From positions 1-59,428 of the forward strand of contig JAFGDH010000037.1 of the NCBI GenBank assembly GCA_016932215.1: 59,428 bases of DNA, written 5' to 3'. Below, piece by piece: positions 51,001-54,000 of the stretch (position 1 is the stretch's first letter; the number at the start of each line of letters is the position of its first letter). Source of the DNA: Candidatus Aenigmatarchaeota archaeon (GTDB lineage Archaea; Aenigmatarchaeota; Aenigmatarchaeia; QMZP01; QMZT01). The position numbers are program-made.

Positions 51001-54000
51001 GCACCGGCTCTATCACATCGTATGCAAGCGCTTTCTTCTCAGTGTTCCATTTTATATGCGCATAAATGAAAGGTTCAAGAAGCGGGTATTTTATATCGAT
51101 TTCAGAAGCCTTTATTTTTTTGGGAAAAAATATCAGATGCCTCGGTTCCTTGAGAGTAATCGAGGGGTATTTAACCTTCCTTTTAAACATGATTTTCTCT
51201 ATCTTTCCCCTCAACACCCCTCTGAGGTTCATTTTCTTACCTTTTTTACAATTTTTCTGTGTCTTGCGCAGGCCGGACAGGCATAGAACTTTGTAGTGGA
51301 AAGGGTGGCCCTTCTCCCAAGTTCCTTTCGCAGGACCGGGTCAGATATAGTGAAACCTCTGTAAACCGGGAATGTCTTGTATTTAGGGACCTTTCTTCCG
51401 CAGAAACTACACGTTATTGTATTTTCTTTACCCCTGGTCTTGGTGTGATGCCAACCTCTTTTGTAAAATCCCTTTGTCATATCTTACTCCTCTATAATAT
51501 ATTTTTCCCTTGCAATATAAATTGAAACCAGCAACGATCAATTCGGGTAATTAGATAAGTGACATAACAAATTTAAATAGATAATTGCTTTGGTGCTATC
51601 CCTTTATTACCCCTATCGGAATCATCCTTGCAACCTTTGTTGATATGCCAGATCCGTGTACGCTGTCTATTACAGATTCTACGTCTTTGTACGCAAGCGG
51701 GGCTTCCTCGGCAAGACTTTTCGGGCTGGTGGCCTGTGACACTATTCCCCTTTCCAGAAGTTCGCTCTTTATTTTGTCGCCCCAGAATTTTTTGATTGCA
51801 GCGTGCCTGCTCATAGCCCTTCCTGCACCATGCGCTGATGATCCGAAGCTTATTTCCATCGCCTTCGCGGATCCTTTCATAAGGTAGGAAGACGTCCCCA
51901 TGGTACCGGCTATTATTACCGGCGTGTCGGGGAATGACCTTGTTGCACCCTTCCTGTGAACATAAAGTTGTCTTTTCTCACCGTTAACCTTGTGCTCTTC
52001 GTATTTCACGATGTTGTGTGCTATTGCGTATATTGTTTTCATGTCCATGGATTCCCAGCCCCTCGAGAAAACCCTCTCGAAAACCTCTCTTATCCATTTG
52101 GTCATGACAGCACGGTTTGTAAAAGAATAGTTGGCCGCGCATTTCATCGCGGCGAAAAAATCCTGGCCCTCTTTGGAATTTACCGGTGCGCATGCGAGCT
52201 GGCTGTCCGGAAGCCATATGTTGTATTTTTTAACCGCCTGCTCCTGTATCTTCAGGTAATCTGTTGCTATCTGGTGTCCCAGCCCTCTTGAACCGCAGTG
52301 AAGCATTATTAAAACCTGCCCGGGCTTTTCGATTCCCCATGATTTTGCGGCATTCTTGTCGAATACGTGAGTGACTTCCTGTATTTCAAGGAAATGATTT
52401 CCGGCACCGAGCGTTCCCAGCTGAGGGGAGCCCCTCTTTTTTGCCAGGTCAGAAACCTTCCCGGGGTCTGCATCTTCCATGCATCCCATTTCCTCCGTCC
52501 TGTCCTGGTCTTCCTTTGTTATATATCCCCTGTCCACTGCCCAGTTTATCCCGTGCTTTAGAACCTCTTCAAGATCATCTGGCGACAGCCTCAGCCTGCC
52601 CTTGGCGCCGACACCTGAAGGAATGGCCTTGAAAAGTGACGGTACAAGCCTGTCAGCCTCTTTCCTCACGTCATCCGATGACAGATTTGTTCTGATGAGA
52701 TTTATACCGCAGTTTATATCAAAACCGCACAGACCTGCCGATATGACGCCATCCTGATCATCGAAAGCCGATACTGCTCCCATTGGCAGTCCGTAGCCCC
52801 AGTGCATGTCAGGCAGTCCGACAACGGGGTTAACCACACCAGGAAGGCACGCAACGTTAGTCAGCTGCTGTACTGCGGCATCCTCTATCGCATCCATTAT
52901 CTTCTGGTTGGCTATCACCCTGGCGTCAACCCTCATTTCCTTTCTGGACTTCTTCGGGAGATTCCATTCGAACTTGTTTATTTTTTCCAGATTTTCTTTC
53001 ATCTTATCACACCATTAGATATGCAATTGTTTACTTAAATCTGTTCATATGTCAAGAGAAACCCTTGTTTTATAACCTTTGTCTGTTTTTTCGAATAGAT
53101 ATTTGTAATTGGTTACAGCCTTTACTACGGTTCCTCCCTTTGAAGGATCGGATTCCTCGCCGTAAATCTCCGCCTTTAAATATTTTTCATTTATTTCAAC
53201 AATCCTGAATTCAGAAAAAAACATCATATCTATGTCAACGGTGCTTATCAGTTCCTGGAGCCAGTTGAACATGAGCTCTCCCGGGTTGCGTCCTCTGACT
53301 TCTATTATCTTATTTTCCGTTTTTCCTATTTTTTCGATTTGGCATATTACTGAAAAAAGAGCACGTGCGGAGTTCTCGAAAACCTCTTTAAGGTCCTTCC
53401 CGTAAGCCTCGAACATCACATCCGAAGTCAAATCGTCTATAAACCTGTATTTCATATAAACAAATTACCATTTTTTGAATTTAAAAGTCGTTTGACTAAG
53501 GAGGAATAAATAAATATAGGATACCTTACAGTCCCTCTATGTCATATTTGTATATTATGTCCTGGGCCCCTTTGCACTGCAGCGACTGCAAAACAAACTC
53601 GTATAGCGTATTGTTGGCCGGTATTATGTATGTTTGTATGTTTTGTGAGGACACGTTTAGGCCGCCGAGCCTTTGCGGGATCGTGTACCTTTGCCCTGTT
53701 GTGTTGGATGTGTATGTGAGTCTGGCGGAAAAGCCACTAAGATCCACGTCTCCCGTGTTGAATATGTGAAGTGTCAGGTTCCCGTTACCGAAATACGCTC
53801 TCTGGATAAGGATACCTGCTCTTGAACAAAGAGCGAGTTCTGACCTTTGCTGTTCAACGAACTGCGTTGCCCACCCGGCCAAAATCCCTGCGACTATCAT
53901 AGTAAAGGCTATTAACATTATAACAGCAATCAAGGGCGAAATACCTTTCCTCATCATAATTTTACTCCTTTGTGATATCGTTTCCTGTTACTCTGGCGAA

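What a model noticed while it worked through the whole genome (the two positions that open the first line are those of the whole stretch)
51229..51480. Ribosomal protein eS26 in every Aenigmarchaeota genome
Unannotated g00116 (83 aa) is a divergent eS26 that falls below family cut-offs and is present in every Aenigmatarchaeota genome sampled. Reading: a DPANN ribosome carries eS26 in the mRNA exit channel together with aS21 and normal Shine-Dalgarno use, so eS26 is not a TACK/Asgard/eukaryote signature and was probably ancestral in archaea. New: it weakens a character used to tie eukaryotes to TACK/Asgard.
Evidence so far: Pfam Ribosomal_S26e E 7.8e-5 (24) and NCBIfam S26e E 7e-9 (139). All 52 PDB hits are eS26, best E 4e-4, with the CxxC and CxxC...H zinc ligands aligned (136). 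41 of 41 phylum genomes match, each in single copy, across 17 families (62). The Pfam genome search misses it (138), which explains why it was overlooked. The GGTGA Shine-Dalgarno peak lies at -9/-8 (66), the anti-SD GATCACCTCC is intact (78), and aS21 is g00665.
(Added by a program. Inside this text positions count along the whole contig: contig position 1 is position 1 of the stretch shown here. "Call 12" and the like, gene names such as g00115 and contig names such as C1 are that model's own, and its searches are not shown. The text may have been shortened before it was handed on; [...] marks where a part breaks off. The agent that wrote the report below was given it as the finding of a first reader that could run no searches.)

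Follow-up and report, generated by a model that had tools for sequence, protein, structure and literature searches.

The report
Ribosomal protein eS26 beyond TACK archaea
This small gene of a tiny archaeon is a diverged copy of ribosomal protein eS26, found in nearly all genomes searched of two large groups of such archaea and likely helping to translate leaderless mRNAs; recent reviews still call eS26 exclusive to eukaryotes and their closest archaeal relatives, but a 2012 study had already reported exceptions and inferred that it is ancestral.

Summary
The 83-aa ORF at 51229-51480 (-) is real and is eS26: four invariant cysteines, 52 of 52 PDB hits eS26, profile match to TACK eS26 at 98.3%, fold match to Saccharolobus eS26. 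It occurs in 147 of 151 phylum genomes (not all), 101 of 101 Micrarchaeota, 48 of 61 Hadarchaeota, 6 of 6 Methanopyrus-type genomes, but only 5 of 81 Iainarchaeota. The headline is not new: Yutin 2012 (File S5) found S26e in Nanoarchaeum, Methanopyrus and Archaeoglobi and did not list it among proteins missing from the archaeal ancestor; JGI and NCBI already name many DPANN copies. Reviews of 2020-2026 still say TACK/Asgard only. In a gene tree, eukaryote+TACK+Asgard eS26 remains one clade (100/95), so the sequence still ties eukaryotes to them; origin from a TACK host is rejected (AU p 0.019, 81 columns). 'Normal SD use' is incomplete: the genome has SD in operon-internal genes and a leaderless promoter signal in first genes, as in Saccharolobus, where eS26 excludes the SD duplex. 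aS21 with eS26 is known in Pyrobaculum. This scan reported the same thing several times on other DNA. New member of a known kind; a useful correction.

The parts
51229..51480 (-). eS26 (S26e) gene, 83 aa: basic N-terminal tail with RG motif, CxxC (24-27), beta-strand/helix/strand core, CxxC (68-71), short basic tail; no eukaryotic C-terminal extension
51487..51492 (-). SD-like site GAGGAG, 6 nt before the ATG; moderate pairing with the anti-SD (-6.7 kcal/mol)
51516..51521 (-). TATA-like TTTATA at -41..-36; predicts a short leader of about 13 nt that holds the SD (inferred, no transcript data)
   Evidence: sequence; leaderless TATA peak at -29..-27
49544..51232 (-). Downstream type IV pilus/secretion ATPase (T2SSE + PilB3_C); its first ATG overlaps the eS26 stop (ATGA). 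Context, conserved in the phylum
51596..53455 (-). Upstream rtcB (51596-53002) and archease (53045-53455); context, common next to eS26 in relatives

Best explanation
This gene encodes a diverged eS26 zinc-finger ribosomal protein that was likely inherited vertically from early archaea and likely binds loosely in the mRNA exit channel of the small subunit, wrapping the anti-Shine-Dalgarno tail and so favouring leaderless mRNAs. Shown: the ORF, homology and fold match to eS26, single-copy conservation in 147 of 151 phylum genomes, an intact anti-SD, and a two-mode genome (SD in operon-internal genes, promoter at leaderless distance in first genes). Inferred from Saccharolobus solfataricus structures: on-off binding, where an SD duplex displaces eS26 or eS26 blocks the duplex, which lets one ribosome pool serve both mRNA classes. 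Inferred from distribution and tree: presence in the archaeal ancestor with many losses, plus probably one transfer between Aenigmatarchaeota and hyperthermophilic euryarchaea.
For: Identity; hhalign of 48 phylum sequences against 14 TACK/Asgard-type sequences, probability 98.3%, E 2.6e-14, 81 columns, all four Cys aligned; Foldseek top 50 all ribosome entries, S. solfataricus 9fs8_b at rank 6; VIA top four Z 5.8-6.9 (9fs6_b Z 6.8, rmsd 3.6, 79 aligned), next row 3.4. Distribution: 147 of 151, Micrarchaeota 101 of 101 (includes unpublished genome G219), Hadarchaeota 48 of 61, Methanopyrus-type 6 of 6, an unnamed small-genome phylum 12 of 31, Iainarchaeota 5 of 81, Huberarchaeum and Archaeoglobus proteins, Nanoarchaeum. 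Tree: Micrarchaeota, Iainarchaeota, Hadarchaeota and the unnamed phylum each form a starred clade outside the TACK+Asgard+eukaryote clade; joining Aenigmatarchaeota-type sequences to TACK is rejected, AU p 0.019. Function: eS26 excludes the SD duplex and favours leaderless mRNA in S. solfataricus (PMC11698992). Own genome: TATA at -30..-25 in 171 of 496 first genes (background 8%), SD <= -8.4 in 30 of 105 internal genes against 52 of 949 control ATGs; 1 of 57 leaderless-type starts has an SD.
Against: No binding or expression data for any non-TACK eS26. The score is below both curated cut-offs. Iainarchaeota without a detectable eS26 show the same two-mode pattern (TATA 30 of 144 first genes, background 7.5%; SD 14 of 43 internal), and Haloferax uses leaderless mRNA without eS26, so the pattern does not need eS26. 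The tree has 81 columns and 17 of 44 inner branches open; DPANN as one clade is rejected (p 0.040) and Archaeoglobi fall inside Aenigmatarchaeota (96/92), so descent was not purely vertical. Start sites come from a crude ORF caller. The model is moderate (pLDDT 75) and Z under 8 is not decisive alone.
Confidence: 0.7

Rival explanations
1. It is a fixed, stoichiometric ribosomal subunit as in eukaryotes, present while SD-led mRNAs are translated.
For: Near-universal single-copy retention in reduced genomes; some relatives sit beside eL40-, RpoF- or Spt4-like genes (recognised by eye); modelled in the P. calidifontis 70S (9e71_BX).
Against: In S. solfataricus its site clashes with the SD duplex and occupancy is low; this genome has an intact anti-SD and uses SD in 30 of 105 internal genes.
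Confidence: 0.17
2. eS26 arose in TACK/Asgard and reached DPANN and some euryarchaea by ancient transfer from hosts, so it was not in the archaeal ancestor.
For: Patchy outside TACK: 5 of 81 Iainarchaeota, 12 of 31 in the unnamed phylum, absent from most euryarchaea in Yutin's Table S3; signs of transfer involving Archaeoglobi; DPANN monophyly rejected.
Against: No non-TACK group nests in TACK; AU p 0.019 against that grouping; present in at least five DPANN and three euryarchaeal lineages; Yutin 2012 already kept it at the root by Dollo parsimony.
Confidence: 0.2
3. It is an eS26-derived zinc-finger protein that has left the ribosome and now serves the type IV pilus operon it heads.
For: The pilus ATPase is the next same-strand gene in 25 of 50 phylum loci, 10 of the 20 diverse ones, with an ATGA overlap here.
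Against: The other half of the loci have other neighbours; no pilus linkage appears among neighbour clusters of Micrarchaeota, Hadarchaeota or Methanopyri; the basic RG tail and VPK motif are kept.
Confidence: 0.05

Closest known systems
Non-TACK arCOG04305 members of Yutin et al. 2012 (PMC3353972): Nanoarchaeum equitans NEQ043, Methanopyrus kandleri, Archaeoglobus profundus Arcpr_0730, Ferroglobus placidus Ferp_1775
   Same: S26e outside TACK without S25e and S30e, poorly annotated. Archaeoglobus and Methanopyrus proteins are the nearest non-phylum relatives in the tree.
   Different: Four genomes in 2012; here phylum-wide counts for lineages that were not sequenced then.
Saccharolobus solfataricus eS26 (PDB 9fs6_b, 9fs8_b; PMC11698992) and Pyrobaculum calidifontis eS26 (9e71_BX)
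   Same: Same fold and four-Cys zinc site, no eukaryotic C-terminal extension, host genome with both SD-led and leaderless genes; aS21 also present in P. calidifontis.
   Different: About 19-25% identity, 83 against 95-100 aa, own N-terminal motif (YxRGWxHTK), outside the TACK/Asgard/eukaryote clade, no eS25 or eS30 found; binding untested.
Eukaryotic eS26/Rps26 (PF01283)
   Same: Best PDB sequence hits, same fold.
   Different: Lacks the roughly 15-residue C-terminal mRNA-binding extension; not stably incorporated if it behaves like the archaeal protein.
Bacteroidetes bS21 (functional analogue, cited in PMC11698992)
   Same: Sequesters the anti-SD tail.
   Different: Unrelated protein. Its SD-based autoregulation (recalled) was tested for eS26 by SD strength and not seen.

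Membership tests
eS26 / S26e homologous family (arCOG04305) | Four zinc-binding cysteines, CxxC...CxxC, in register with known eS26 | tested here: met
   C24, C27, C68, C71 invariant in 48 phylum and 50 cross-lineage sequences and aligned to TACK eS26
eS26 / S26e homologous family (arCOG04305) | Best sequence and profile matches are eS26 and nothing else | tested here: met
   52 of 52 PDB hits; best Pfam and NCBIfam family; hhalign 98.3%, E 2.6e-14
eS26 / S26e homologous family (arCOG04305) | eS26 fold | tested here: met
   Foldseek prob 1.00 to 9fs8_b and 9fs6_b; VIA top four rows Z 5.8-6.9, next 3.4; model pLDDT 75
eS26 / S26e homologous family (arCOG04305) | Small basic protein, RG-containing N-terminal tail, single copy per genome | tested here: met
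   83 aa, R16-G17 invariant; one full match per genome in 147 of 151
eS26 / S26e homologous family (arCOG04305) | Binds the small subunit at the mRNA exit channel around the 16S 3' end | not testable with these tools
   Shown only for S. solfataricus, P. calidifontis and eukaryotes
Curated models PF01283 and PRK09335 (operational threshold, not the homologous family) | Score above the curated cut-off | tested here: not met
   23.5 < 27 and 35.9 < 118 bits; orthologues in 11 of 61 phylum genomes pass Pfam
TACK/Asgard/eukaryote eS26 subtype | Falls inside the TACK+Asgard+eukaryote clade | tested here: not met
   That clade is 100/95 without it; forced grouping with TACK rejected, p 0.019
TACK/Asgard-type small subunit (eS25+eS26+eS30) | eS25 and eS30 also encoded | tested here: not met
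   0 of 61 genomes over cut-off for either; eS25 two weak hits, eS30 none. Diverged copies could be missed, as eS26 was

The most novel reading that the evidence does not exclude
eS26 is an ancestral archaeal initiation switch rather than a TACK invention: kept by nearly all Aenigmatarchaeota and Micrarchaeota, passed from Aenigmatarchaeota symbionts to hyperthermophilic Archaeoglobi (and perhaps Methanopyri), and self-limited by weak start codons (ATT, TTG, GTG) behind strong SD sites, as IF3 limits itself in bacteria.
Probability: 0.25. Interest if true: 0.65.

Novelty: new member of a known kind. Interest (0 to 1): 0.33.

Why it matters
Reviews and structure papers of 2020, 2022, 2025 and 2026 use eS26 as a character shared only by TACK, Asgard and eukaryotes. 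The counts here show that presence alone cannot be used so; eS25, eS30 and the eS26 sequence subtype still can. It is a correction that revives a 2012 result and extends it to whole phyla, and it makes one question testable: whether the anti-SD-blocking role seen in Saccharolobus is ancestral to archaea.

Tried and rejected
Autoregulation through an unusually strong SD: rejected; SD <= -8.4 kcal/mol in 8 of 19 diverse phylum eS26 genes against 9 of 24 other ribosomal protein genes, p 1.0. Link between eS26 presence and leaderless signal: not found; Iainarchaeota lacking a detectable copy show it too. Recent transfer from a TACK host: rejected. Aenigmatarchaeota monophyly without Archaeoglobi is not rejected (AU p 0.26), so that transfer is not shown. 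The 108-row careful tree did not finish; its quick tree nested Methanopyri inside Aenigmatarchaeota with weak support, while the 47-row tree (61 unnamed, long-branch or redundant rows left out) put them as sister (82/76). Four weak Iainarchaeota hits inside 480-870 aa frames were dropped (9 to 5 of 81). 13 of 120 pattern matches in bacterial records were dropped. No handle was obtained for Nanoarchaeota (Woesearchaeales, Pacearchaeales), Altiarchaeota, Undinarchaeota, Halobacteriota or Thermoplasmatota, so they were not counted. No RNA holder listed. Literature searches that found no main-text report of eS26 in Aenigmatarchaeota, Micrarchaeota or Hadarchaeota; three supplements of PMC7414124 had no hit. 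A 2017 survey named in earlier finding e1-9968703 was not found.

Full report
Observation. The ORF at 51229-51480 on the minus strand starts with ATG and encodes 83 residues. Pfam Ribosomal_S26e hits at E 7.8e-5 (23.5 bits, cut-off 27) and NCBIfam PRK09335 at E 7.1e-9 (35.9 bits, cut-off 118). All 52 PDB sequences matched at E<=1 are eS26.

Identity. 233 homologues were found; of the 120 listed, 33 carry a precomputed PF01283 hit and 14 are already named S26 by JGI or NCBI. In an alignment of 48 of them C24, C27, C68 and C71, R16-G17 and the VPKYK motif are fixed or nearly so; the four cysteines stay invariant in a 50-row cross-lineage alignment while H74 does not. Profile against profile, this family matches 14 TACK/Asgard-type eS26 sequences at probability 98.3%, E 2.6e-14 over 81 columns. 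The AlphaFold model (pLDDT 75) returns only ribosome entries in Foldseek's top 50, S. solfataricus eS26 among them. The VIA search ranks four small-subunit chains first (Z 5.8-6.9; three are named S26), with the next row at 3.4. I take the identity as settled (about 0.97).

Distribution. The family profile hits 147 of 151 genomes of the window's phylum in all 28 families, 86 of 89 among genomes at least 90% complete. The phylum is read as Aenigmatarchaeota from homologue names. Pfam alone finds 36 of 61 at E<=1e-3 and passes 11 of 61. A profile search of 1.84 billion cluster representatives gave 71 proteins; look-ups of 30 of them named Huberarchaeum crystalense, a Diapherotrites protein that NCBI already calls S26e, Methanopyrus kandleri and Archaeoglobus profundus, and a further search returned many Micrarchaeota. 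A DNA pattern scan of named genomes, stopped at 120 loci, gave 107 archaeal eS26 genes, from Micrarchaeota, TACK, Hadarchaeota, Iainarchaeum and others, and 13 matches in bacterial records that I dropped. With a broad profile the phylum counts were: Micrarchaeota 101 of 101 (one is the unpublished G219), Hadarchaeota 48 of 61, the six-genome group with Methanopyrus-type proteins 6 of 6, an unnamed small-genome phylum 12 of 31, Iainarchaeota 9 of 81, of which 5 are real. eS25 and eS30 were not found over cut-off in any of 61 phylum genomes, nor in this genome (89% complete).

Prior art. Yutin et al. 2012 (PMC3353972; seen: passages, section 9, File S5 whole, rows of Tables S3 and S4; supplement 13 not searched) list five proteins as missing in the archaeal ancestor, and S26e is not one of them. 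[quoted passage not shown] Table S4 lists NEQ043 under arCOG04305, and Table S3 shows Nanoarchaeum with S26e but no S25e or S30e. Later papers still call eS26 TACK/Asgard-only: PMC7531240 (passages), PMC8997704 (passages), PMC11698992 (passages and Discussion; supplements not seen), PMC12993045 (passages). The P. calidifontis preprint reports aS21 on a ribosome that also has eS26 (passages; chain 9e71_BX). PMC12892359 (passages) and PMC7414124 (three supplements) added nothing. This scan has reported the same finding on other DNA at least six times.

History. A 47-row tree (81 columns, LG+C20+F+G4; 61 of 108 rows left out as unnamed, long or redundant) gives TACK+Asgard+eukaryote as one clade (100/95; one eukaryote row, identified by eye), Micrarchaeota, Iainarchaeota, Hadarchaeota and the unnamed phylum as separate starred clades, and Aenigmatarchaeota with Archaeoglobi (96/92), Methanopyri as weak sister (82/76). 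AU tests, run after the tree was seen: Aenigmatarchaeota-type sequences joined to TACK without Asgard and eukaryote, p 0.019; DPANN as one clade, p 0.040; Aenigmatarchaeota alone, p 0.26. So a TACK donor is unlikely, ancestry with many losses is the simplest reading, and one transfer with hyperthermophilic euryarchaea is possible but not shown. The tree is unrooted and short.

Mechanism. In S. solfataricus eS26 wraps the 16S 3' end, clashes with the SD duplex, is sub-stoichiometric and favours leaderless mRNA. This genome has an intact anti-SD. With a crude ORF caller, 171 of 496 first genes have a TATA-like box at -30..-25 of the ATG (background 8%), the distance expected for leaderless transcripts, and 30 of 105 operon-internal genes have a strong SD against 52 of 949 control ATGs; only 1 of 57 leaderless-type starts has an SD. 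Twenty diverse phylum loci show the same (75 of 188; 10 of 57), as do Micrarchaeota (39 of 194; 17 of 62). This is the setting in which the Saccharolobus mechanism makes sense, and it replaces 'normal SD use'. Against a tight link: Iainarchaeota without detectable eS26 show it too (30 of 144; 14 of 43). Binding is inferred, not shown.

Self-regulation. The gene has an SD-like GAGGAG and a TATA-like box that would give a short leader. SD strength in eS26 genes does not exceed that of other ribosomal protein genes (8 of 19 against 9 of 24). Start codons are more unusual: TTG or GTG in 10 of 20 and 27 of 61 Micrarchaeota and 13 of 34 TACK loci, and likely ATT in L201 and L204 and TTG in L198, against ATG in 24 of 24 phylum control genes and in 9 of 10 control genes from nine Micrarchaeota genomes chosen for a non-ATG eS26. 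That is a lead from a selected sample, prompted by earlier finding e1-1092657, and does not apply to this window's gene, which starts with ATG.

Context. The next gene is a type IV pilus ATPase overlapping the stop; it follows eS26 in 25 of 50 phylum loci, the window's own included, and is not among the neighbour clusters of other lineages.

Verdict. A true, diverged eS26; new member of a known kind. The evolutionary headline dates from 2012, the phylum-wide counts, the tree and the two-mode initiation signal are additions, and current reviews need correcting. Interest 0.33.

Noticed in passing
window 49544-51232 (-); L003-L030, L194-L212: A type IV pilus ATPase gene directly follows eS26 in 25 of 50 phylum loci, and a TadC-like membrane protein gene (named by eye) lies first or second downstream in 13: a ribosomal gene heading pilus operons across the phylum.
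   Followed up: partly
L165-L170, P0139, P0141, P0374: Methanopyrus and Archaeoglobus eS26 resemble the Aenigmatarchaeota subtype (GFRITDP or APYxR motifs); Archaeoglobi nest in it at 96/92, a possible symbiont-host transfer.
   Followed up: partly
L201, L204, L198; L233-L252: eS26 genes with likely ATT or TTG/GTG starts behind SD sites, while control ribosomal genes use ATG.
   Followed up: partly
G000 whole genome: Strong leaderless-type promoter signal (TATA at -29..-27 of the ATG) in about a third of first genes, nearly exclusive of SD. Searches 'leaderless'+'DPANN' listed no paper on this (listing only).
   Followed up: partly
L104, L131, P0165, P0183, P0192: A short, long-branched eS26 form in Bathyarchaeia records, ending right after the second CxxC; possibly a second paralogue.
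   Followed up: no
L072:1501-1541: A contig filed under Acidobacteriota carries the first half of a Bathyarchaeia-type eS26 that then loses similarity; likely a misbinned archaeal contig with a frameshift.
   Followed up: no
P0136, P0138, P0142: Proteins of 216-619 aa with an N-terminal eS26 domain of the Aenigmatarchaeota/Methanopyri type and long unrelated C-terminal parts; fusions or read-through calls, origin unknown.
   Followed up: no
window 53526-54450 (-): Two archaeal type IV pilin-like genes (Pilin_N, below cut-off) upstream of archease and rtcB, so the eS26-rtcB-archease block lies inside a pilus gene region.
   Followed up: no
Iainarchaeota G291-G370; phylum of G151: eS26 found in only 5 of 81 and 12 of 31 genomes: natural loss (or divergence) contrasts inside DPANN.
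   Followed up: partly
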